DNA of 64,000 bases from Alphaproteobacteria bacterium (GTDB lineage: Bacteria > Pseudomonadota > Alphaproteobacteria > RF32 > CAG-239): contig JBGULQ010000013.1 of the NCBI GenBank assembly GCA_045116295.1, forward strand, positions 3,745 to 67,744, written 5' to 3'. Shown in pieces: positions 2,000-32,973 of the stretch. Every line of letters starts with the position of its first letter. Position 1 is the stretch's first letter. The notes below the pieces were generated by a model. It did no database searches. It was not told the origin of the DNA and worked only from the letters and a program-made list of their open reading frames with translations. Both the position numbers and the translations under genes were made by a program.

Positions 2000-2024
2000 G
2001 TGTAACCTTAAGACATGAAGTATT

Positions 2025-2831
2025 ATGTTTAACGTTGAACTTCCGTCTCCATGGATCTGTTGGTCGATGGTGGCAATTTTGCTGATAGCAATAGTTTATC
2101 AGTATCGAGGCAAGCTGATGACAGTTAACAATACTGAGCATGGGACTAGGTCAAGAAGGAGAAAACGCGAGCCTTCTGACGACAATCCTATGTCGGTAAT
2201 ATGGACTGTTTCAGTATGTGTCGGGATGATTCTTTGGGGAGCTTATCTCGTATTTAAGATTCCTAATCCTCCGTACTGGCCTGCGCTGATAACTTTTGTT
2301 TGTGCTGTCATTTTCTGGGTATGTTCCATTTTTGATGATGATTGTAATGACAATAGTCTCAGAGTTACCGTCATGACGGTTGTTGCCACCGCTATTATAG
2401 TGATTATGGTAACATTGCTTTGGGCTGATGCATGGCACGATTTCGTCCTTTGGACGGCGGTACTTTCGTTGTTGGCAGGTGCCATTCCTTTGTGGAAGAT
2501 GAACCGAGGATGGTCATATGTGCTGTTTGCACTGTTGGTCGTTGTCCTTATGGCGGGTAGCTGGTATGCAATGACTGTTCAGGTCATACACTCTAGTGCA
2601 ACCTTCTGTTTTGAGCTGATAGCTATAATTGTACTAGCTATCAGTTTGGCTATATTTATTGGTGTTGGGAAGGAAACTGAAGAGAAATTGCAAGCTTTTT
2701 CAGAGGCTATGTTTTTCATGCCACTGGCTACAACAGGAATTATCTTGTTGTTCAACTCCACTGCAATCGGTCTGATATGGCTGTGTGTTGCAAGTGTGTT
2801 AATAGCCGGCCGTGCCAAAATCGTTAAATAA
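2025..2831 (+). CDS. polytopic membrane protein, unknown function
   Basis: 268-aa ORF starting 25 nt after the SPFH gene, with about 7-8 hydrophobic segments. I recognise no motif. Confidence 0.6.
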   Translation: MFNVELPSPWICWSMVAILLIAIVYQYRGKLMTVNNTEHGTRSRRRKREPSDDNPMSVIWTVSVCVGMILWGAYLVFKIPNPPYWPALITFVCAVIFWVCSIFDDDCNDNSLRVTVMTVVATAIIVIMVTLLWADAWHDFVLWTAVLSLLAGAIPLWKMNRGWSYVLFALLVVVLMAGSWYAMTVQVIHSSATFCFELIAIIVLAISLAIFIGVGKETEEKLQAFSEAMFFMPLATTGIILLFNSTAIGLIWLCVASVLIAGRAKIVK

Positions 2832-2846
2832 AATTGCTTAACTTCA

Positions 2847-2882
2847 CTTATCCCCGTCGACATTCGTGCCGACGGGGATAAG
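2847..2882. terminator. bidirectional stem-loop terminator between convergent units
   Basis: CTTATCCCCGTCG (2847-2859) and CGACGGGGATAAG (2870-2882) form a perfect 13-bp stem. It lies between the stop at 2831 (+) and the stop at 2887 (-). Confidence 0.7.
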
Positions 2883-2886
2883 GATT

Positions 2887-4080
2887 TTAAAGAGTGATTA
2901 ATGATAAAAGTTGTTTTTGGCGGTCGCTGATGTTTAGTTTGGCAACATAATCTTCGGTAATTTTTATGCCGTCGGCAAATTGAAATGTTCCGTCATCAAG
3001 CATTTTACCGGTAGTAAGGTTTTTAAACAGGCGTTCAAATTCACTTTTTGGTTTATGTTGTTTCCAATAATGCTCAATGGCGTAGTAACATTTTGGCATC
3101 TTGTTTTTGGCGTAACCGGTACATCCCCCCAAACAGGCTAGAGAAAATGGGCATTTTTTGCAATATCCAACAAGCTTTTTGAATTTTTCAATTCGATGGT
3201 TCCAAAAACAGAATTTATTATTGTGACGGATTTCTTTCAGGCTGTTTTGTCGTAAATCACCTTCTATATAACGCTCATCATAAAGAGAGAGACAACCCAA
3301 AACTTTGCCATCAGAACGAATGCCAATATTACCTTTGCCGGCGTAGCAACCGATCCAAAAACGGTTGGCGGTGTGAGGAGGGATAACTTTGGAGTAGTAT
3401 CCCATGTTATGCATTCCTAAAATGTGCATTTTTTCTCCACAAATAATACGTGTTTGAGCAGCAAAAATACCGGCAATGTAGTACTCAAAAATATCTAGAG
3501 ATAAATCTTGATTCATGCGTCCAAACATAGTGGCATGTTGCAACTGCCAAGAAGAAAAAGATTTATCACGCAAGAGCTTTCTTAATACTTTTAATTCAGT
3601 AATGTTTATTTTGTTGATGGTGGTAATGGCACCAAAACGAATGTCTTTTTGTAAGGCTATCTCAGCTACTTTGAAGACATTTTCAAAACAATTGGGAACT
3701 TGACGAATACTGTTATGAGTCTGTGGAGTTCCGCCATCAATGCTAAAACCCAAAGCCTTTATGCCGACGGATTTTAAGAAATCAAGTTTTTCATTATTGA
3801 GCAATAATCCGTTGGTTATGATGGTAGTTGGTATTTCGTTTTTTTGGATTTCGGTCAGAAGTTCACGCCAATGAGGGTATAGAAAATATTCTCCGCCAAT
3901 GAGAGATAAAAGCTGGCACTTAGCAGCAGCTAATTGTTTAACTACGGATAAAACTTCTTGCCAACTGAGGTTATTGGTTCTGTCAATGCCGGCACTAGAA
4001 CCGCAGTGGATGCAATTGGCATTGCATTTCAGTGTGAGTTCCCAGACAGCAGTTACAATATTTTTTTTACAAAAGCTCAT
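2887..4080 (-). CDS. radical SAM enzyme with C-terminal SPASM domain (peptide-modifying type)
   Basis: 397-aa ORF with a CX3CX2C motif at residues 19-26 (CNANCIHC). It also has a Gly-rich GGEYFLYP SAM motif and a C-terminal CKKCPFSLACLGGC (CX2CX5CX3C) SPASM signature. Confidence 0.85.
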   Translation of the reverse strand: MSFCKKNIVTAVWELTLKCNANCIHCGSSAGIDRTNNLSWQEVLSVVKQLAAAKCQLLSLIGGEYFLYPHWRELLTEIQKNEIPTTIITNGLLLNNEKLDFLKSVGIKALGFSIDGGTPQTHNSIRQVPNCFENVFKVAEIALQKDIRFGAITTINKINITELKVLRKLLRDKSFSSWQLQHATMFGRMNQDLSLDIFEYYIAGIFAAQTRIICGEKMHILGMHNMGYYSKVIPPHTANRFWIGCYAGKGNIGIRSDGKVLGCLSLYDERYIEGDLRQNSLKEIRHNNKFCFWNHRIEKFKKLVGYCKKCPFSLACLGGCTGYAKNKMPKCYYAIEHYWKQHKPKSEFERLFKNLTTGKMLDDGTFQFADGIKITEDYVAKLNISDRQKQLLSLITL

Positions 4081-4085
4081 GGAAT

Positions 4086-4235
4086 TTAGTATAAAGTAAA
4101 ACCATAATCAGTCATACGTTCAGCAACTGGTGGATGATTATAATTATATATTACTCTCAGGACTCCGACGACAAAAAAAACTAGGATAAATACTAAAATC
4201 GTTATAAATAGGCTTTTTTTGAACACTCTTTTCAT
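4086..4235 (-). CDS. 49-aa small protein, candidate radical-SAM substrate peptide
   Basis: MKRVFKKSLFITILVFILVFFVVGVLRVIYNYNHPPVAERMTDYGFTLY. An AAGGAG lies 9 nt upstream of the ATG at 4235. The stop is 5 nt before the rSAM ATG. The longer track ORF (start 4298) overlaps the -35 box, so it is unlikely. Confidence 0.55.
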   Translation of the reverse strand: MKRVFKKSLFITILVFILVFFVVGVLRVIYNYNHPPVAERMTDYGFTLY

Positions 4236-4269
4236 ATGAAAGCTCTCCTTGAAGTTTTGTCGCGTTGCT

Positions 4270-4298
4270 ATTGTATTTAGTTGTATGGTGTATGTCAA
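4270..4298 (-). promoter_or_regulatory. consensus sigma70-type promoter of the peptide-rSAM unit
   Basis: The minus strand reads TTGACA (4298-4293), a 17-nt spacer, then TACAAT (4275-4270). Confidence 0.6.
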
Positions 4299-4331
4299 TA
4301 TTTTTTTAAGGTTAAAATGTTGGACATTTTT

Positions 4332-4745
4332 TTATTTTTTGATAAAGTTTTTATCTTGTTCGGGAATGCCAGATGTGTCTTCAACGTAGCGTTCAACTTT
4401 CATATGTAAGTCATATTTGTTGCGGAGTTCGGCAATCTTTGACATCATCGGGGAGGCGTGGTGCTTATCAATAGCTTTTTGGTTTTGCCAACTATCAATC
4501 AAGAGCACGGTTTCGTTATCATCTTTGGGATAAAAATATTCATATCTTAAATTGCCTTCTTCAGCACGAATTGCGGCAACGGTTCCGCTTTGCTCCATTT
4601 CTTCGGCAAATTTGCGAGCATTGCCGTTTTCTCCGGTATAATAAATGTTTACGGTAATAGTCATATTCGGGTTATCCTCTCCAAAGGCTGAACTTGTTGG
4701 TAGCAAAAATAAAAATCCGGCAAAGATTAGTTTTGATAATTTCAT
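4332..4745 (-). CDS. exported ABM-domain (antibiotic-biosynthesis-monooxygenase-like) protein
   Basis: Signal peptide MKLSKLIFAGFLFLLPTSSAFG, then an ABM-like core (ITVNIYY...LLIDSWQNQKAIDKHHASP). A GAGG 6 nt before the ATG at 4745 supports that start. Confidence 0.7.
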   Translation of the reverse strand: MKLSKLIFAGFLFLLPTSSAFGEDNPNMTITVNIYYTGENGNARKFAEEMEQSGTVAAIRAEEGNLRYEYFYPKDDNETVLLIDSWQNQKAIDKHHASPMMSKIAELRNKYDLHMKVERYVEDTSGIPEQDKNFIKK

Positions 4746-4798
4746 ATTTGACCTCATCAGGCAGCATTAAATAATACAGAGTGTTTTCCTGTTAAAAG

Positions 4799-5467
4799 TT
4801 AGTTATTCATGGTGGCTAAGCGTTTGCCCATCTCGTAAGCTTTGCGCATATCAATCGGAAATTGTTTGTCACGGACTAAAGCTTTGTGTACGGGGTCAAA
4901 CAAGTCGCAATCATATTTTGCATAGTCTGTGTATTGGAATGTATCAAATGCATAGAGAGTTTCCGAGTACCCAAATACGGCATGGAGGCTCTTTTCATTA
5001 TCACTCAGGATGACATCATAATTATACATTTTGAATTGCTCGGCATTTGCGTTCATTGTGAAGATAAGTCCGGTTGGCAGGGTGCGGGGTAAAACACGTT
5101 TTAAACCACCGTTTACTTTGTCCAGCATATATGTGTGTGCGGGAAACATGAAGCGTTCCAAAAATGCACGGAACATGCCGGACGGGTAAGAGTGATAAAC
5201 CGGAGAACCGACAATTACAGCATCGGCATTCAGACATTTTTCTAACAAAGGGGTCAGTCCGTCTTTGAAAAAGCACAGGCCACTCTGAGCAACACCTTTG
5301 CGCTTGCACATCAAACAACTGATACAGCCCTTATAGTTGAGGTCGTATAGGTTGAAAAATTCAACTTCGGCTCCGCTTTCTTCGGCACCGCGGGCGGCTT
5401 CTTTTAAGAGCTTTGCGGTATTAAAGTTTTTGCGCGGGCTTCCGTTGACGATGATTACTTTTTTCAT
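4799..5467 (-). CDS. iron-sulfur flavoprotein-like / NADPH-dependent FMN reductase family
   Basis: Flavodoxin-like N-terminus MKKVIIVNGSPRKNFNT and a Cys cluster CISCLMC...C. Confidence 0.75.
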   Translation of the reverse strand: MKKVIIVNGSPRKNFNTAKLLKEAARGAEESGAEVEFFNLYDLNYKGCISCLMCKRKGVAQSGLCFFKDGLTPLLEKCLNADAVIVGSPVYHSYPSGMFRAFLERFMFPAHTYMLDKVNGGLKRVLPRTLPTGLIFTMNANAEQFKMYNYDVILSDNEKSLHAVFGYSETLYAFDTFQYTDYAKYDCDLFDPVHKALVRDKQFPIDMRKAYEMGKRLATMNN

Positions 5468-5479
5468 GGCAATTCCTTT

Positions 5480-6109
5480 CTAAAATTCAGAAACAAAATG
5501 CACGACGCCTTTTTCTTTGCGGCGGCGTTTTTTGATTGTGGGAAAATTGTTGCAAATGTAATGATAGCGAGGGCAGTCATCTCCGTGGTCGTTGATAATG
5601 CCGCAGGCCTGTAAATGTGAATATACGGTAACCGTACCGAGAAATTTGAAGCCTCTTTTTTTCAAGTCTTTGCTGATGATGTCGGACAGCTCATTGCTGG
5701 CAGGAATATAGCCTTCACCGTGGCGGTCATAAAGAATGGTTTTGCCATCAGAAAAAGCCCAGAGATAATTGCAAAAACTGCCGAATTCTCGGCGGATTTT
5801 TTGAAAACAACGGGCGTTGTTGATGATGGCGTTTATTTTGCGAGGACTTTTAATCATGCCGGCAGTGTTCATAATCCGGTTTAAGTCATGGTCGGTATAG
5901 GCGGCAATTCGGTCATAATCAAAATTATCAAAACAGCGGCGAAAAATTTCGCGCTTATTAATCATCATATTCCAGTTGAGGCCGCATTGCATGACTTCCA
6001 TCATCAAAAATTCAAACTGTTTTTGGTCGTCATGGAGAGGAACACCCCATTCACGGTCGTGATACATGGTGTTGAGTTCTGATGTTCCGCTCCAGTTGCA
6101 ATAAGCCAT
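5480..6109 (-). CDS. tag: DNA-3-methyladenine glycosylase I
   Basis: YHDREWGVP, FEFLMMEVMQCGLNW and the C-terminal His/Cys zinc-site region (HLQACGIINDHGDDCP) are typical of Tag. Confidence 0.85.
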   Translation of the reverse strand: MAYCNWSGTSELNTMYHDREWGVPLHDDQKQFEFLMMEVMQCGLNWNMMINKREIFRRCFDNFDYDRIAAYTDHDLNRIMNTAGMIKSPRKINAIINNARCFQKIRREFGSFCNYLWAFSDGKTILYDRHGEGYIPASNELSDIISKDLKKRGFKFLGTVTVYSHLQACGIINDHGDDCPRYHYICNNFPTIKKRRRKEKGVVHFVSEF

Positions 6110-6124
6110 TTGAGATATCTCTTT

Positions 6125-6685
6125 TTATAGCAATCCTTCAGCCCATGATTTCAGCTCTTCTGCAGATACGCCGGAGGAAAAACGTTTGCCTTCCAAAACT
6201 TTGGCAGAAGGGGCTAAGGCTTGTATGTTTTTGCCGGAATCACCAATACTGCTCATGCCTGATGTGGCAAACGGAATAACGGTTTTGCCGGCAAAGTCAT
6301 AGCTTGTCATAAAAGTATCAATGATTGAGGGTTCACGATACCACCAAATCGGAAAGCCGACAAATACAACATTGTATTGACTCATGTCGGCGACTTGGCC
6401 AGCAATAGCCGGGCGGCTTGATTTGTCAGCCATTTCAACCGAACTGCGGCTTTTTTTGTCGGTCCAGTCAAGGTCAGCGTTGCTGTAGGGTTGAGCCGGT
6501 TTGATCTCAAACAAATCGGCATTAATTGCCTGTGATAAACGTTCAGCAACTTTGGCAGTTGTGCCGGTGGCACTGAAATATGCTACCAATATTTTTTTAT
6601 CTGTCATATTATTCTCCTGTGCTTGTACATTAATATTGCTCAAAAAAGTGAGAACAGCAGTAATTAAATATAAAAATTTTTTCAT
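6125..6685 (-). CDS. flavodoxin-fold protein with N-terminal signal peptide
   Basis: MKKFLYLITAVLTFLSNINVQAQ, then KILVAYFSATGTTAKVAE (flavodoxin FMN loop). A GAGAGG 7 nt before the ATG at 6685 supports that start. Confidence 0.75.
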   Translation of the reverse strand: MKKFLYLITAVLTFLSNINVQAQENNMTDKKILVAYFSATGTTAKVAERLSQAINADLFEIKPAQPYSNADLDWTDKKSRSSVEMADKSSRPAIAGQVADMSQYNVVFVGFPIWWYREPSIIDTFMTSYDFAGKTVIPFATSGMSSIGDSGKNIQALAPSAKVLEGKRFSSGVSAEELKSWAEGLL

Positions 6686-6696
6686 GCTTTTACCTC

Positions 6697-8445
6697 TCAA
6701 ATGTTTTGTAAAATATCATCAACAATTTGTTTAACAGTCAAGTGATAACGATTGTAAAGGTCGGTTAAATCGGCACGGTCGGTAAACTCTTTGAATGAAC
6801 CGTAGTTCAAAACCTTCATTTCGGACGGACCGTAAAATCTGCTGACCTTTTCACCAAAACCACCATCGAGTTCGCCATCTTCAAGCGTAATAACAAGTTT
6901 GTGTTCGGCTTTGAGTTTTTCAAGACATGATTTGTCAACACCGGTCAGATAACGCGGGTTAATCAGGGTAGGTGTCAGATTGTGTTTTTTGAGTTCTTCT
7001 GCCACTTGCTGTCCAAGACCAAAGAAACTTCCGGCGGCAATAATGGCTACATCTTTGCCTTGTGCGGCTGTTTGATAGGTGTTGAGGTTGTCGTAGTTCT
7101 TGTCTACATTTGCTGTGGTATGGACAATCTCTTTAGGCATACGGATAACAACCGGATGTTTGTTTTGTTCCAATCCCCAGTCAAGCATTGCCAAATATTC
7201 TTCAACCGTGGTCGGTGCGAGATATACCAAATTAGGAATGTTTGAAATCATAGAGATATCAAACGAGCAAAGGTGTGTCATATCAGCACCGGAAATGCCG
7301 CCCCAGGCAACCAATATAACTGCGGGGTTGTTGTTTAAGGCCAAATCTTGCGAGAGTTGGTCGTATGTGCGTTGAATGAACGAGCTCATAACCATAAAGA
7401 TAGGTTTGCAGCCACCTTTGGCCAGAGCAGAAGTGAAAGCAACACCATGTTCTTCGGCAATGCCGACATCAACAAAATGTTCACCTAAAACTTTACGTCT
7501 TTCGGCATTAAGCCCGAAAACTCCGGGAGTTCCGGCGTTGACAGCTACGATGATCGGATCGTTTTTGATTTTTTTAAGCAGGTAGTCATAGGTAATGTCA
7601 TTATAGTTTTCGCCTGACATATTCCATTTGGGGCTACCGTCTTTGAGGTTGAAAGGAACACTCCAGTGCCACGGCTCTTTATCTTGTTCAGCCAACGCAT
7701 AGCCTTTGCCTTTGAGGGTGTGAATATGGATTACAGTCGGTCGGTTGGTGTCTTTGGTTTTGTTCAAAACATCGATCATTGCTTCCAAAGAATTGCCATC
7801 TGCTACATAATGATAGTCAAAACCAAGGGCTTTAAACATATTGCATTCGGCTTTGCCATTAGTTTCACGCAAAAGACGCAGGTTGGTGTATAGACCGCCG
7901 TGATTTTCGGCAATGGACATCTCGTTGTCGTTTAAGATAATTATGATGTTGCTGTTTAATACGGCAGCATTGCTAAAACCTTCTAGAGCTTCGCCACCGG
8001 AAAGCGAACCATCACCGATAACGGCGATTACGTTGTGCTTTTCTCCACGGAGGTTGCGAGCTTTGGCAAGACCACAGGCAAGACTTACGGAAGTAGAAGT
8101 ATGTCCGACTTTGAAAAAGTCGTGTTCGCTTTCATCCTGATTGGTGTAACCGGATATTTTTTGCATGCCTTCAGCAGTCAAAAAGCCTTCTTTACGTCCG
8201 GTCAACAATTTGTGCGGATAGCATTGGTGCGAAACGTCCCAGACAATTTTGTCATGCGGAGAGTTGAAAACATAATGCAGAGCAATTGCGGTTTCGACAA
8301 TTCCGAGGTTGGGGCCGACGTGGCCGCCGACAGTGCTGTCACGGTTTAAGATAGCGTCGCGGATCTCGGAAGCCAATGTCTGCATTTGCGAAATATTCAG
8401 CTTTTTGAGGTCGGAAGGCGAATTAATTTGTTCAAGATAAGACAT
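6697..8445 (-). CDS. 1-deoxy-D-xylulose-5-phosphate synthase-like thiamine-diphosphate enzyme (paralogue)
   Basis: 582 aa. GGHVGPNLGIVETAIALHYVF...WDVSHQCYPHKLLTGR and the ThDP motif GDGSLSGGEALEGFSNAA...NDN both match DXS. It is shorter than canonical DXS and sits inside a redox operon. Confidence 0.75.
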   Translation of the reverse strand: MSYLEQINSPSDLKKLNISQMQTLASEIRDAILNRDSTVGGHVGPNLGIVETAIALHYVFNSPHDKIVWDVSHQCYPHKLLTGRKEGFLTAEGMQKISGYTNQDESEHDFFKVGHTSTSVSLACGLAKARNLRGEKHNVIAVIGDGSLSGGEALEGFSNAAVLNSNIIIILNDNEMSIAENHGGLYTNLRLLRETNGKAECNMFKALGFDYHYVADGNSLEAMIDVLNKTKDTNRPTVIHIHTLKGKGYALAEQDKEPWHWSVPFNLKDGSPKWNMSGENYNDITYDYLLKKIKNDPIIVAVNAGTPGVFGLNAERRKVLGEHFVDVGIAEEHGVAFTSALAKGGCKPIFMVMSSFIQRTYDQLSQDLALNNNPAVILVAWGGISGADMTHLCSFDISMISNIPNLVYLAPTTVEEYLAMLDWGLEQNKHPVVIRMPKEIVHTTANVDKNYDNLNTYQTAAQGKDVAIIAAGSFFGLGQQVAEELKKHNLTPTLINPRYLTGVDKSCLEKLKAEHKLVITLEDGELDGGFGEKVSRFYGPSEMKVLNYGSFKEFTDRADLTDLYNRYHLTVKQIVDDILQNI

Positions 8446-8455
8446 TATTTTTTCC

Positions 8456-9001
8456 TTATTTTAAATTTTTACCAAAATTGTAAGCTTTTTGAAGCAGATC
8501 ATTGTGTTTGCTAGCTTCTTTGGGATCATTTACACCGCCGCCGGCTAAAAGTCCGGCAAAGCGTGATTGTTCAAAACAAGCGACCCATCCTTTGAGGCCG
8601 TTGGCAGCATTATCAGATGCCTCGTCCGAAGCATCATAAGAGGTGGTCAACAGATAGACGTTGCGGAATTTGTTTTCTTGTGAGAACAGCGGGTTGCAAC
8701 GGTCCAAAAAGGTTTTGAGTTGACCGCTCATTTCATAGTAATAAATCGGGGTGGCAAAGACCAAAGTGTCTGCATTTTGAACCTTTTGAATCAGCTCAGC
8801 CATGTCATCTTTGATGACGCATTTGAGAGTTTTTTGGCAGGCAAGACAGCCTTTGCAAAAGTTGATTGCTTTGTCTTTGAGGCTGATAAATTCGGTCTCA
8901 AATCCGGCATCAACGGCACCGCGTTCTACTTCATGAGCAACTATCTCGGAGTTGCTTCCGCCACGCAAGCTTGATGAGATGATTAATACTTTTTTGGTCA
9001 T
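8456..9001 (-). CDS. iron-sulfur flavoprotein-like / NADPH-dependent FMN reductase family
   Basis: MTKKVLIISSSLRGGSNS plus CKGCLACQKTLKC (CX2CX2CX5C). Confidence 0.75.
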   Translation of the reverse strand: MTKKVLIISSSLRGGSNSEIVAHEVERGAVDAGFETEFISLKDKAINFCKGCLACQKTLKCVIKDDMAELIQKVQNADTLVFATPIYYYEMSGQLKTFLDRCNPLFSQENKFRNVYLLTTSYDASDEASDNAANGLKGWVACFEQSRFAGLLAGGGVNDPKEASKHNDLLQKAYNFGKNLK

Positions 9002-23115: not shown

Positions 23116-23201
23116 GCGGCTGTGGCGAAATTGGTAAACGCGTAACGTTGAGGTCGTTATGAGCTAAGCTCTTGGAAGTTCAAGTCTTCTCAGCCGCACC
23201 A
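23116..23201 (+). tRNA. tRNA-Leu (anticodon GAG)
   Basis: Hand-folded cloverleaf. Acceptor GCGGCTG/CAGCCGC, anticodon loop TTGAGGT, long variable arm GAGC-TAA-GCTC, T-loop TTCAAGT, encoded CCA. Confidence 0.9.
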
Positions 23202-31698: not shown

Positions 31699-31776
31699 GG
31701 CGAAAGTAGCTCAGTTGGTTAGAGTGTCGGTTTGTGGTACCGAATGTCGTGAGTTCGAGTCTCATCTTTCGCCCCA
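31699..31776 (+). tRNA. tRNA-His (anticodon GTG) with genome-encoded G-1
   Basis: GGCGAAAG/CTTTCGCC forms an 8-bp acceptor including G-1:C73. Anticodon stem-loop TCGGT-TTGTGGT-ACCGA, T-loop TTCGAGT, encoded CCA. Confidence 0.9.
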
Positions 31777-32899: not shown

Positions 32900-32973
32900 G
32901 CGAGTATAATTCAATGGTAGAATGAGAGCTTCCCAAGCTTTAAATGCGGGTTCGATTCCCGTTACTCGCTCCA
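32900..32973 (+). tRNA. tRNA-Gly (anticodon CCC)
   Basis: Hand-folded. Acceptor GCGAGTA/TACTCGC, anticodon stem-loop AGAGC-TTCCCAA-GCTTT, T-arm GCGGG-TTCGATT-CCCGT, encoded CCA. Confidence 0.9.

What the first reader, a model, noticed from the sequence alone, without database searches (positions are those of the whole stretch)
2847..4298. Self-contained small-peptide + radical SAM/SPASM unit (RiPP-like) with an unusual hydrophobic precursor
A consensus promoter on the minus strand (TTGACA-17-TACAAT, 4298-4270) drives two genes. The first is a 49-aa ORF preceded by AAGGAG: MKRVFKKSLFITILVFILVFFVVGVLRVIYNYNHPPVAERMTDYGFTLY. Its stop lies 5 nt before the ATG of a 397-aa radical SAM enzyme. That enzyme carries CX3CX2C (CNANCIHC) and a C-terminal SPASM motif (CKKCPFSLACLGGC). 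The unit ends at a perfect 13-bp bidirectional terminator (2847-2882).

SPASM-domain rSAM enzymes typically modify a peptide encoded next to them, as with PqqE/PqqA, MftC/MftA, sactipeptide and ranthipeptide synthases, and cyclophane-forming enzymes. This peptide has no Cys. Its C-terminal 20 residues are rich in aromatic residues and Asn/His (YNYNH...DYGFTLY) and end in Tyr. That would fit C-C cross-linking or a C-terminal Tyr modification rather than thioether chemistry.

The N-terminal two thirds is a transmembrane-like helix rather than a typical soluble leader. The substrate might therefore be membrane-anchored or secreted. Alternatively the ORF could be an unrelated small membrane protein.
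Basis: partly seen in the sequence, partly recalled or inferred. Interest (0 to 1): 0.65.

Follow-up and report, generated by a model that had tools for sequence, protein, structure and literature searches.

The report
Likely peptide-splicing enzyme with anchored substrate
A 49-residue membrane-anchored peptide and the radical SAM enzyme encoded right after it form a conserved two-gene unit that most likely cuts a tyrosine out of the peptide backbone at a Tyr-Gly site to leave a reactive keto-amide; the chemistry is known but rare, and here it appears in an unusual secreted or anchored form in gut bacteria.

Summary
On the minus strand there are a near-consensus promoter, a 49-aa ORF with a Shine-Dalgarno site, a 397-aa radical SAM/SPASM gene 5 nt downstream, and a strong 13-bp hairpin.

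In 29 orthologous loci (gut and rumen Alphaproteobacteria, Melainabacteria, Elusimicrobia) the only conserved neighbour of the enzyme is the upstream ORF.
- These ORFs differ widely, from 49 to 412 aa. Most carry a signal peptide or TM anchors.
- 25 of 29 share an X-Tyr-Gly motif, usually [T/S]-[K/D]-Y-G-[V/F/L]. The window has TDYGF. Three others have K-Y-M-G.
- The C-terminal Tyr and the YNYNH stretch are not conserved.

The enzyme's best curated match is TIGR04103, the PlpX "splicease" family. The score is far below its cut-off. The enzyme groups with other rSAMs whose partner peptides all carry XYG.

Best explanation (confidence about 0.6): this is a binary spliceotide-type cassette. [quoted passage not shown] The product is then displayed outside the cytoplasm.

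It is a new variant of a known kind. I could not check whether it is among the 939 spliceotide systems predicted in a paper I could not read.

The parts
4270..4298 (-). Sigma-70-like promoter: TTGACA, 17 nt, TACAAT
   Evidence: 11/12 match, best in region; 7 such sites in the window against about 2.6 expected.
4245..4250 (-). Shine-Dalgarno AAGGAG, 9 nt before the ATG of the peptide ORF
   Evidence: Read directly.
4086..4235 (-). Precursor ORF, 49 aa: MKRVFKKSLFITILVFILVFFVVGVLRVIYNYNHPPVAERMTDYGFTLY
   Evidence: Called as a gene in public assemblies. A 91% variant exists.
4158..4214 (-). Predicted transmembrane helix (residues about 8-26) after a basic N-terminus (MKRVFKK). The predicted topology is N-in, C-out.
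   Evidence: Hydropathy scan. The topology is inferred from the positive-inside rule.
4098..4112 (-). Conserved core motif T42-D43-Y44-G45-F46 (X-Y-G); predicted site of modification at Tyr44
2887..4080 (-). 397-aa radical SAM/SPASM maturase, predicted splicease-like. It starts 5 nt after the peptide stop and has no Shine-Dalgarno site of its own, so translational coupling is likely.
   Evidence: AF2 model pLDDT 94.5. Foldseek best matches are SkfB, SuiB, PqqE and anSME.
4003..4026 (-). CX3CX2C (C19, C23, C26), the radical SAM [4Fe-4S] motif
   Evidence: invariant.
3088..3348 (-). SPASM region with eight invariant Cys (C245 to C331), the auxiliary cluster ligands
   Evidence: PF13186, residues 245-311.
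2890..3087 (-). Family-specific C-terminal extension (residues 332-397: two helices, a beta-hairpin, two helices), confidently folded
   Evidence: Full-length matches are rare in 1.84 billion representatives. No similarity to a PlpY-like ORF or to any Pfam family.
2847..2882 (.). 13-bp perfect inverted repeat between convergent genes; probable terminator
   Evidence: dG -31.3 kcal/mol, z -7.1.

Best explanation
The unit is a two-gene (binary) spliceotide-type RiPP cassette. The steps below are marked as shown or inferred.

1. **Expression (sequence shown, function inferred).** One promoter drives the 49-aa precursor and, by translational coupling, the rSAM/SPASM enzyme.
2. **Recognition (inferred).** In the cytoplasm the enzyme recognises the short core motif T-D-Y-G-F near the peptide's C-terminus.
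3. **Chemistry (inferred).** Like the PlpX, RhaX and RcsX spliceases, the enzyme uses a 5'-deoxyadenosyl radical to excise a tyramine equivalent (C8H9NO, -135.06 Da) from Tyr44. [quoted passage not shown]
4. **Export (inferred).** The precursor has no soluble leader, and the cassette encodes no protease or transporter. The N-terminal basic and hydrophobic segment routes the modified peptide into the inner membrane after translation, N-in and C-out. The ketoamide tail ends up tethered on the periplasmic side. In relatives with cleavable signal peptides the modified protein is released.
5. **Function (inferred).** The electrophilic ketoamide most likely acts as a protease inhibitor. In most family members X is Lys (31 of 47 sites). 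That would give a Lys-type ketoamide suited to trypsin-like proteases of the gut. In the window's clade X is Asp.

Shown here: the genes, the motifs, the conserved pairing, the motif conservation and the homology. Inferred: the chemistry, the order of modification and export, the topology and the inhibitor function.
For: **The pairing is conserved.**
- In 25 loci (24 orthologous loci plus the window) spanning 3-4 phyla, the only conserved neighbour of the rSAM is the ORF immediately upstream on the same strand, with a gap of -1 to 41 nt.
- Those ORFs are otherwise unrelated. Yet 25 of 29 inspected carry X-Y-G, often repeated up to 5 times, and 3 more carry K-Y-M-G.
- YG is about 5 times denser than in neighbouring ORFs, and no shuffle reaches the observed count.
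- In L043 the rSAM is a pseudogene and the homologous tail has lost the Tyr-Gly. This is a single case.

**The enzyme's closest relatives are spliceases.**
- The best curated family for the window enzyme and for its orthologue in Elusimicrobium posterum is TIGR04103, 'nif11-class peptide radical SAM maturase 3'. The window scores 184 bits (E 3.7e-54), nearly full length. TIGR03913 and TIGR04133 come next.
- A bona fide TIGR04103 member on a Nostoc plasmid is 30% identical (E 8e-48). It sits beside a Nif11 precursor ending ...GGRGSIALYGLPPELF and a 71-aa Y-like ORF.
- PlpX-type enzymes excise tyramine at XYG (PMC11414181, PMC11002830, PMC10533398, PMC11626197).

**Every related rSAM clade examined also has XYG partners.**
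- An NHLP-leader peptide with ...AEYGV (L032).
- A GG-leader peptide with three xYGIVRP repeats (L035).
- An Agathobacter peptide with ...VMYGT.
- DUF1843 'GDL' peptides with LYGG, PYGV and MYMA.
- TIGR04133-associated lipoproteins with C-YG and CEYG.
- In an NJ tree the window family is monophyletic (99% bootstrap). The XYG-associated rSAMs separate from three non-XYG outgroups in 85 of 100 bootstraps.

**Other points.**
- Core contexts resemble tested splice tags. TKYGVVFPDD (L015) can be compared with GAVAAGYGVVFPG, a PlpA2-derived core carrying an engineered GYG motif (PMC10533398).
- Binary systems without a Y protein are the rule outside cyanobacteria (PMC11414181).
- Spliceotide ketoamides inhibit proteases, while the unspliced peptides do not (PMC11626197).
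Against: - The enzyme scores far below the TIGR04103 cut-off (184 against 725 bits). It forms its own clade, so the chemistry is extrapolated across about 30% identity.
- No product mass is available.
- Three orthologous loci, and one extra ORF in L019, have Y-M-G or Y-M instead of Y-G. This departs from the strict XYG rule.
- In Rheinheimera RcsA a DYG site was not spliced by RcsX (PMC11626197). Asp at position X is therefore not generally accepted, yet it is the residue in this window.
- A cytoplasmic, oxygen-sensitive enzyme must act before membrane insertion or export. That is plausible for a 49-aa peptide but not shown.
- One family member (L087) has no recognisable YG ORF nearby.
- An AlphaFold complex model could not be run.
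Confidence: 0.6

Rival explanations
1. The enzyme and substrate pair is the same, but the chemistry at the conserved Tyr is different. Examples are a C-C or C-O cross-link of Tyr44 to a neighbouring residue (a three-residue cyclophane over Y-G-F/V, as in triceptides), or hydroxylation or another backbone edit, rather than tyramine excision.
For: - The family is a separate clade with only about 30% identity to a TIGR04103 member, and it is far below all curated cut-offs.
- The conserved motif is longer than XYG: [T/S]-[K/D]-Y-G-[V/F/L], with a hydrophobic residue two positions after Tyr.
- Y-M-G variants exist.
- DYG was not spliced by RcsX (PMC11626197).
- SPASM enzymes are known to diverge in chemistry within related clades.
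Against: - None of the cyclophane, ether or thioether maturase families ranks near the top. DynA scores 53 bits and WgkB 68 bits, against 184 for TIGR04103.
- All neighbouring clades share the Tyr-Gly hallmark, for which the only chemistry I found described in the papers read here is tyramine excision (PMC11414181).
- Gly directly after Tyr is the most conserved feature.
Confidence: 0.25
2. The enzyme modifies the aromatic-rich C-terminus, either by oxidative decarboxylation of the C-terminal Tyr49 (MftC-like, -46 Da) or by C-C cross-links among YNYNH...Y.
For: The window peptide ends in Tyr and is rich in Tyr, Asn and His. The MftC and PqqE models give weak hits (66 and 60 bits).
Against: - The C-terminal Tyr is absent from a 91%-identical variant (...TDYGFFTLHEIP) and from every other orthologue seen.
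- YNYNH is not conserved beyond the closest variant.
- The MftC and PqqE scores are far below their cut-offs and below the splicease-type hits.
- There are no mft or pqq genes nearby.
Confidence: 0.03
3. The small ORF is an unrelated small membrane protein. The rSAM acts on another substrate encoded elsewhere, for example a cofactor or tetrapyrrole (AhbD- or NirJ-like) or a protein.
For: - AhbC, AhbD and NirJ-type models give moderate hits (77-98 bits).
- The N-terminal two thirds of the peptide is a TM helix, not a typical leader.
- One family member (L087) lacks a YG ORF.
Against: - The pairing and the motif are conserved across phyla while everything else in the neighbourhood differs.
- No haem or cofactor genes are linked.
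- The window holds only one small ORF with the motif, and it is the adjacent one.
Confidence: 0.05

Closest known systems
Type I spliceotide systems PlpA/PlpX/PlpY and PcpAXY (Pleurocapsa); rSAM family IPR026482, NCBIfam TIGR04103
   Same: - An rSAM/SPASM maturase with no N-terminal RRE domain.
- It is the best curated HMM match, aligned almost full length.
- The precursor is encoded directly upstream and has an X-Tyr-Gly core.
- Similar core contexts (YGVVFP, YGLP).
- A C-terminal extension beyond the SPASM domain.
   Different: - Only about 30% identity, and 184 bits against a 725-bit cut-off.
- No Nif11 or NHLP leader.
- No Y protein and no other conserved gene.
- The precursors carry signal peptides or TM anchors.
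- X is mostly Lys or Asp rather than Met or Leu.
- The hosts are uncultured gut lineages rather than cyanobacteria.
Binary (type II) spliceotide systems RhaX/RhaA, RcsX/RcsA and RasX/RasA of Rheinheimera (PMC11414181, PMC11626197)
   Same: A two-component X plus A architecture without a Y protein, splicing at XYG, and products that are protease inhibitors.
   Different: - Those precursors have a soluble helical leader that activates the enzyme, and they are linked to other RiPP genes and exporters.
- Here no soluble leader is conserved, and export would use the general Sec or YidC machinery.
- RcsX left a DYG site unmodified, whereas DYG is the only candidate site in this window.
TIGR04133 radical SAM/SPASM protein with 'radical SAM-associated putative lipoprotein' (Bacteroidales, Treponema)
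   Same: A related rSAM (third-best curated hit). Its partner protein carries a signal peptide and a YG at or just after the lipobox Cys. This shows that exported YG proteins paired with an rSAM exist elsewhere.
   Different: - 123 bits against a 425-bit cut-off.
- The window peptide has no Cys or lipobox.
- The motif sits at the C-terminal tail, not at the mature N-terminus.
- The chemistry of that family was not found described in the papers I could read.
TIGR03913 'GDL motif peptide-associated radical SAM/SPASM maturase' with DUF1843 peptides (Azospirillum, Burkholderia)
   Same: It is the second-best curated hit. Its peptides carry xYG, or xYM, near the N-terminus. The Y-M variants parallel the K-Y-M-G subgroup seen here.
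   Different: 159 bits against a 592-bit cut-off. Its precursors are soluble 60-aa helical peptides with a GDL motif, and none of that is present here.
Signal-peptide RiPPs made by MNIO enzymes (bufferins, DAG-RiPPs; PMC13056109)
   Same: The logic is shared. A cytoplasmic maturase modifies a precursor whose N-terminal 'leader' is a general-secretion signal peptide, and the product is secreted or membrane-bound without a dedicated protease or transporter.
   Different: The enzyme family and chemistry are unrelated. This is an analogy in export logic only.
Mycofactocin MftC/MftA and PqqE/PqqA
   Same: SPASM rSAM enzymes acting on a Tyr of a small adjacent peptide.
   Different: The HMM scores are far below their cut-offs (66/265 and 60/381). 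The C-terminal Tyr is not conserved. There is no PqqD- or MftB-type RRE gene and there are no pathway genes.

Membership tests
Spliceotide / splicease system (PlpX-type, TIGR04103) | Radical SAM core CX3CX2C plus a full SPASM domain | tested here: met
   AF2 model pLDDT 94.5 with SPASM-enzyme structural neighbours.
Spliceotide / splicease system (PlpX-type, TIGR04103) | Score at or above the curated TIGR04103 cut-off (725 bits) | tested here: not met
   184 bits; the Elusimicrobium posterum orthologue scores 228 bits. It is the best-scoring family, but the enzyme is not an equivalog member.
Spliceotide / splicease system (PlpX-type, TIGR04103) | Adjacent precursor with an X-Tyr-Gly splice motif | tested here: met
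   TDYGF in the window. XYG in 25 of 29 orthologous loci, significance; further loci.
Spliceotide / splicease system (PlpX-type, TIGR04103) | Nif11 or NHLP leader on the precursor (type I) | tested here: not met
   No NCBIfam or Pfam leader hit for the window peptide or for orthologous precursors. An outgroup peptide (L032) does pass the NHLP model.
Spliceotide / splicease system (PlpX-type, TIGR04103) | Separate Y (RRE-like) activator protein (type I only; absent from binary types according to PMC11414181) | tested here: not met
   No further conserved gene. The C-terminal extension shows no similarity to a Y-like ORF.
Spliceotide / splicease system (PlpX-type, TIGR04103) | [quoted passage not shown] | not testable with these tools
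   Needs co-expression and HR-MS/MS.
Spliceotide / splicease system (PlpX-type, TIGR04103) | Phylogenetic grouping with rSAMs whose partners carry XYG | tested here: met
   NJ tree: 85 of 100 bootstraps for XYG-associated rSAMs against three outgroups. Sampling was small and the method simple.
TIGR03913 GDL-motif peptide system | Score at or above 591.75 bits, and a DUF1843 / GDL-motif precursor | tested here: not met
   159 bits. The peptide has no GDL motif.
TIGR04133 rSAM with associated lipoprotein | Score at or above 425 bits, and a partner with a lipobox | tested here: not met
   122.7 bits. The window peptide contains no Cys.
Mycofactocin (MftC/MftA) | MftC model at or above 265 bits, a conserved C-terminal Val-Tyr on the peptide, and the mftB/D/E/F genes | tested here: not met
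   65.8 bits. The terminal Tyr is absent from the close variant. No mft genes are present.
PQQ (PqqE/PqqA) | PqqE model at or above 381 bits, an E-x3-Y motif in the peptide, and the pqqB/C/D genes | tested here: not met
   60.1 bits. No pqq genes in the neighbourhood.
Anaerobic sulfatase maturase | anSME model above its cut-off and a sulfatase with a C/S-x-P-x-R motif nearby | tested here: not met
   Not among the 25 best families. PDB anSME gives only E 2.9e-10 with the family profile. No sulfatase gene nearby.
Three-residue cyclophane (triceptide) or darobactin/dynobactin-type maturases | Membership of the XyeB, GrrM, FxsB, DarE or DynA families, and an aromatic-x-x motif in the precursor | tested here: inconclusive
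   DynA scores 52.6 bits against a 450-bit cut-off, and none of the others is in the top 25. A Y-G-[V/F/L] triplet would formally fit an aromatic-x-x motif, so the chemistry cannot be excluded from sequence alone.

The most novel reading that the evidence does not exclude
This would be a leaderless, export-coupled spliceotide. The enzyme recognises only a short [T/S]-[K/D]-Y-G-[V/F/L] tag, perhaps helped by its own C-terminal extension acting like the engineered X-Y fusions of PMC11414181. It splices the tag in otherwise unrelated signal-peptide or membrane proteins. These proteins are then inserted or secreted by the general Sec or YidC machinery. The cell would thereby display or release Lys- or Asp-type ketoamide warheads that inhibit host or competitor proteases in the gut. 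That would be a natural single-enzyme protein-splicing tag system, and a RiPP class without a leader, protease or transporter.
Probability: 0.3. Interest if true: 0.7.

Novelty: new variant of a known kind. Interest (0 to 1): 0.5.

Why it matters
- **Scope of the chemistry.** If the prediction holds, backbone tyramine excision extends to membrane-anchored and Sec-secreted proteins. The hosts would be uncultured gut and rumen lineages: Alphaproteobacteria, Melainabacteria, Elusimicrobia and Endomicrobia.
- **A simpler RiPP logic.** No leader, protease or transporter would be needed.
- **A possible host-interaction function.** The usual X residue, Lys, predicts a Lys-type alpha-ketoamide. That is the kind of warhead that blocks trypsin-like serine proteases, which are abundant in the gut. 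This suggests a defence or host-interaction role.
- **A practical tool.** A compact enzyme that recognises a 5-10 residue tag in very different proteins would be useful for installing beta-amino-acid or ketoamide handles in proteins. That is the aim of the engineered PlpXY and RhaX-leader fusions.
- **A route to native detection.** One family member is in a cultured organism with a complete genome, Elusimicrobium posterum Dip510.
- **If the chemistry differs.** If it is not splicing, the family would define a new Tyr-Gly-directed rSAM reaction.

Tried and rejected
1. **AlphaFold of an enzyme-linker-peptide fusion.** No complex model was obtained.
2. **The C-terminal extension as a fused Y/RRE domain.** hhalign against a Nostoc Y-like ORF gave probability 0.1. 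A Pfam scan of 18 extensions gave nothing. The idea is not supported by sequence. Because RREs diverge strongly, it remains open.
3. **Homologues of the 49-aa peptide.** The search found only the 91%-identical variant. Precursors of this family are not alignable as a family; only the motif is shared.
4. **Solved structures.** No splicease structure exists. The nearest are SkfB, SuiB, PqqE and anSME. These confirm the fold class but not the chemistry.
5. **The key survey paper.** Scott et al. 2022 (Chem) reports 27 characterised and 939 predicted systems, but it is not in the library. I could not check whether this clade is already listed.
6. **Extra substrates.** A scan of the 64-kb window for further [TS]x[DK]YG ORFs found only one other hit, inside a 559-aa ORF, taken as chance.
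7. **Other conserved genes.** A search for protease, transporter or RRE genes around 24 orthologues found none.
8. **Rejected readings.** The MftC-like, PqqE-like, sulfatase-maturase and haem-type (AhbD/NirJ) readings were rejected on HMM scores, gene context and lack of conservation of the proposed target residues.
Full report
**1. Observation**

- The promoter is TTGACA-17-TACAAT at 4298-4270. It is an 11/12 match and the best promoter-like site in 2000-5500. Sites this good occur 7 times in the whole window, against about 2.6 in first-order Markov shuffles.
- AAGGAG lies at 4250-4245 and the ATG at 4235. The 49-aa ORF ends with TAA at 4088-4086.
- Five nucleotides later, at 4080, the 397-aa ORF begins. 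It has no Shine-Dalgarno site of its own, so translational coupling is likely.
- The enzyme carries C19-x3-C23-x2-C26 and gives Pfam Radical_SAM and SPASM hits.
- The 13-bp inverted repeat at 2847-2882 folds at -31.3 kcal/mol with z = -7.1. It lies between convergent genes. The U-run follows it only on the plus-strand transcript.
- The same peptide ORF is present and called in independent public assemblies.

**2. What the enzyme is**

- Against NCBIfam the enzyme reaches no curated cut-off. Its best hit is TIGR04103, 'nif11-class peptide radical SAM maturase 3', at 184 bits (E 3.7e-54, aligned 8-368 to 4-376 of 412). TIGR03913 (159 bits) and TIGR04133 (123 bits) follow. Haem-type, mycofactocin, PQQ, sactipeptide and dynobactin models score much lower.
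- A protein search found a sharply bounded orthologous group of about 67 clusters. These are 43-65% identical and about 400 aa long. The score then falls from 354 to 243 bits.
- The named members come from gut, rumen and termite-gut MAGs of Alphaproteobacteria, Melainabacteria/Gastranaerophilales, Elusimicrobia and Endomicrobia, plus the cultured Elusimicrobium posterum.
- In 1.84 billion 50%-identity representatives, only a handful match the profile over its full length including the C-terminal extension.
- AlphaFold2 gives a confident model (pLDDT 94.5, pTM 0.92). The C-terminal extension at residues 332-397 is well folded. The structural neighbours are the RiPP maturases SkfB, SuiB and PqqE, and anSME. 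No splicease structure has been solved.

**3. What the peptide is**

- I fetched 79 loci for relatives of the enzyme and read the upstream regions.
- In the orthologous loci, an ORF on the same strand ends -1 to 41 nt before the rSAM start.
- An all-against-all comparison of neighbourhood ORFs shows that this is the only conserved neighbour. No protease, transporter or RRE gene recurs.
- The upstream ORFs are not alignable as a family. They range from 49 to 412 aa.
  - In Alphaproteobacteria close to the window they are membrane proteins with 1-5 TM helices and a short C-terminal tail.
  - In Melainabacteria, Elusimicrobia and Endomicrobia they have Sec-type signal peptides or N-terminal anchors.
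  - In one alphaproteobacterial subgroup they are long soluble proteins.
- What they share is a short motif, usually [T/S]-[K/D]-Y-G-[V/F/L].

| Locus | Motif |
|---|---|
| Window, L007 | TDYGF |
| L008 | SDYGL |
| L010 | EKYGV and TDYGV |
| Melainabacteria | TKYGV(Y/V)FPDD |
| Elusimicrobia | one to five xKYGVxP repeats |
| L089 | ...SWYGVVIDDSGDS at the C-terminus |
| L086 | AASYGVDF |

- In the first 24 loci, 23 upstream ORFs contain YG. The shuffle mean is 6.8 and the maximum 15 in 5000 shuffles. There are 47 YG sites against 8.1 +/- 2.7 expected. The density is 1.42 per 100 aa, against 0.30 in the other ORFs of the same loci.
- Over all 29 loci inspected, 25 have XYG and three (L024, L025, L088) have [S/T]-K-Y-M-G-A-R-G. 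One (L087) has none that I could find.
- X is Lys in 31 of the 47 sites and Asp in 5. The Asp sites are in the window's clade.
- In multi-TM precursors the motif falls on the side predicted to be extracytoplasmic (topology inferred from the positive-inside rule).
- A 91%-identical variant of the window peptide ends ...AERVTDYGFFTLHEIP.
- In L043 the rSAM is a pseudogene, with a premature stop and residues 153-347 deleted. The homologous upstream tail there reads ...CGTSGFTLESG, without Tyr-Gly. This is a single but suggestive case of joint decay.

**4. Link to known chemistry**

- X-Tyr-Gly is the recognition motif of the spliceases. These are rSAM/SPASM enzymes (PlpX, PcpX, RhaX, RcsX, RasX) that excise a tyramine equivalent (C8H9NO, -135.06 Da). 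[quoted passage not shown]
- PlpX belongs to IPR026482 and acts on Nif11/NHLP-type precursors (PMC11002830). That IPR026482 corresponds to TIGR04103 is from my memory. It is consistent with the family name and with what I found on a Nostoc plasmid.
- On that plasmid a protein annotated with the TIGR04103 name sits between a Nif11 precursor ending ...GGRGSIALYGLPPELF and a 71-aa Y-like ORF. It is 30% identical to the window enzyme (E 8e-48).
- Every related rSAM clade I looked at also has an XYG partner.
  - An NHLP-leader peptide with AEYGV, which passes the NHLP model.
  - A GG-leader peptide with three xYGIVRP repeats.
  - An unannotated Agathobacter rectalis peptide with VMYGT next to an MFS transporter.
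  - The DUF1843 'GDL' peptides of the TIGR03913 system, with LYGG, PYGV and MYMA.
  - The lipoproteins of the TIGR04133 system, with C-YGMP and CEYGSP.
- In a neighbour-joining tree the window family is monophyletic (99% bootstrap). The XYG-associated enzymes separate from three non-XYG relatives in 85 of 100 bootstraps.
- Outside cyanobacteria, splicease systems are binary and lack a Y protein (PMC11414181). That matches the two-gene layout here.
- Spliced peptides inhibit serine and cysteine proteases, whereas the unspliced ones do not (PMC11626197).

**5. Most likely mechanism**

- The promoter drives the peptide and, by coupling, the enzyme.
- The enzyme binds the TDYGF tail in the cytoplasm and excises tyramine from Tyr44. 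This leaves an Asp-derived ketoamide joined to Gly45.
- The 49-aa peptide is too short for co-translational targeting. It would insert after translation, N-in and C-out, and present the modified tail on the periplasmic face.
- Relatives with cleavable signal peptides would release the modified protein.
- The pairing and the motif are shown. The chemistry, the order of events, the topology and the inhibitor role are inferred.
- I put about 0.85 on 'the enzyme modifies the XYG motif of the upstream product'. I put about 0.6 on the full statement including tyramine excision.

**6. What argues against it**

- The family is distant from verified spliceases, and there are no mass data.
- Y-M-G variants exist.
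- A DYG site was left unspliced by RcsX (PMC11626197).
- The main rival is a different Tyr-directed reaction on the same motif, for example a Y-G-[V/F/L] cyclophane. It cannot be excluded from sequence.
- The 'unrelated membrane protein' reading is contradicted by the conserved pairing.

**7. Novelty**

- Spliceotides are a known class. A 2022 survey that I could not read reports 27 characterised and 939 predicted systems in 189 genera (PMC10533398, PMC10849128). This clade may therefore already be listed.
- No curated model covers the enzyme. None of the orthologous precursors scanned, nor the window peptide, matches a curated family.
- The combination seen here is not described in the papers available to me. 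It consists of signal-peptide or TM-anchored precursors, no leader, no protease, no transporter, a short tag that is often repeated, X mostly Lys or Asp, and gut-associated uncultured hosts.
- The nearest parallels in logic are the TIGR04133 lipoprotein pairs and the MNIO-made signal-peptide RiPPs (PMC13056109).
- I rate it a new variant of a known kind, with interest 0.5.

**8. What led nowhere**

- The C-terminal extension shows no similarity to a Y-like protein or to any Pfam family.
- The peptide has no detectable homologues beyond one close variant.
- No further motif-bearing small ORF exists in the window.
- The cassette has a slightly lower G+C content than its flanks (0.35-0.39 against 0.43-0.45). 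Together with the patchy phyletic spread, this hints at horizontal transfer, but it proves nothing.

Noticed in passing
L043:3547-4600 (UMGS241, human-gut alphaproteobacterium): The rSAM orthologue is a pseudogene, with a premature stop and residues 153-347 deleted. The upstream multi-TM ORF ends ...CGTSGFTLESGDKSAYF, a homologous tail that has lost the Tyr-Gly. Enzyme and motif appear to have decayed together.
   Followed up: partly
L024:3190-3978, L025:3285-3977, L088:234-1472: In one alphaproteobacterial subgroup the precursors are long soluble proteins (230-412 aa) with a conserved [S/T]-K-Y-M-G-A-R-G in place of K-Y-G. An extra ORF in L019 (VQTKYMVG) and one Azospirillum DUF1843 peptide (PMYMAT) show the same Y-M substitution.
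   Followed up: partly
L014:377-3649, L015, L016, L018 (Melainabacteria/Gastranaerophilales): These loci are larger. They hold a second, shorter rSAM (about 356 aa; Radical_SAM but no SPASM Pfam hit) and two ORFs of about 200 aa without Pfam hits. Some also have a second precursor with xTLYGV.
   Followed up: partly
L092:2704-2910 (Agathobacter rectalis NZ_CP143948.1): An unannotated small ORF (...MFNLEELSLEFVKISELKTSKNLFGPVMYGTGVRM) lies directly upstream of a 'radical SAM protein' (34% identical to the window enzyme) and an MFS transporter. It looks like an unannotated spliceotide-type cassette in a common human gut Firmicute.
   Followed up: partly
L091:2055-2770 (Azospirillum oryzae); L093:1563-2405 (Parabacteroides distasonis); L094:2041-2430 (Treponema saccharophilum): The partner peptides and proteins of two curated but apparently uncharacterised rSAM families also carry Tyr-Gly. 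The DUF1843 'GDL' peptides have LYGG, PYGV and MYMA. The 'radical SAM-associated putative lipoproteins' have YG at or just after the lipobox Cys.
   Followed up: partly
P0128 and P0139: These are proteins of about 730 aa whose C-terminal half is a close relative of this rSAM (486 and 304 bits). The N-terminal half of about 390 aa is of unknown nature.
   Followed up: no
L087:653-3457: This family member has no recognisable YG ORF. A 274-aa DUF4013 multi-TM protein lies upstream and a second radical SAM gene (253 aa) directly downstream.
   Followed up: partly
L010:1870-2430, L011:3426-3962, L013:3457-3999, L089:1049-1501: Several alphaproteobacterial precursors share a conserved cytoplasmic segment between TM helices (K-[VI]-KITFMD...ISFEDK...YEC-P-x-x-IK). 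It has no Pfam hit, and its function is unknown.
   Followed up: no
window 4332-4757 (-), 4799-9001 (-), 2025-2831 (+): The cassette is flanked by three features. Upstream is an ABM-domain protein with a signal-peptide-like N-terminus. Beyond it is a run of flavodoxin and FMN-reductase-type genes, a DNA-3-methyladenine glycosylase and a DXP-synthase-like gene. On the other side is a convergent 268-aa multi-TM ORF with no Pfam hit. None of these is conserved next to the orthologues.
   Followed up: partly
window 2800-4600: The cassette has a lower G+C content (0.35-0.39) than the flanking genes (0.43-0.45). This is compatible with horizontal acquisition. The family's distribution across unrelated gut phyla points the same way.
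   Followed up: no
window 23116-23201, 31700-31776, 32900-32973 (+): tRNA-Leu(GAG), tRNA-His(GTG) and tRNA-Gly(CCC). There are no other Rfam matches in the window.
   Followed up: no
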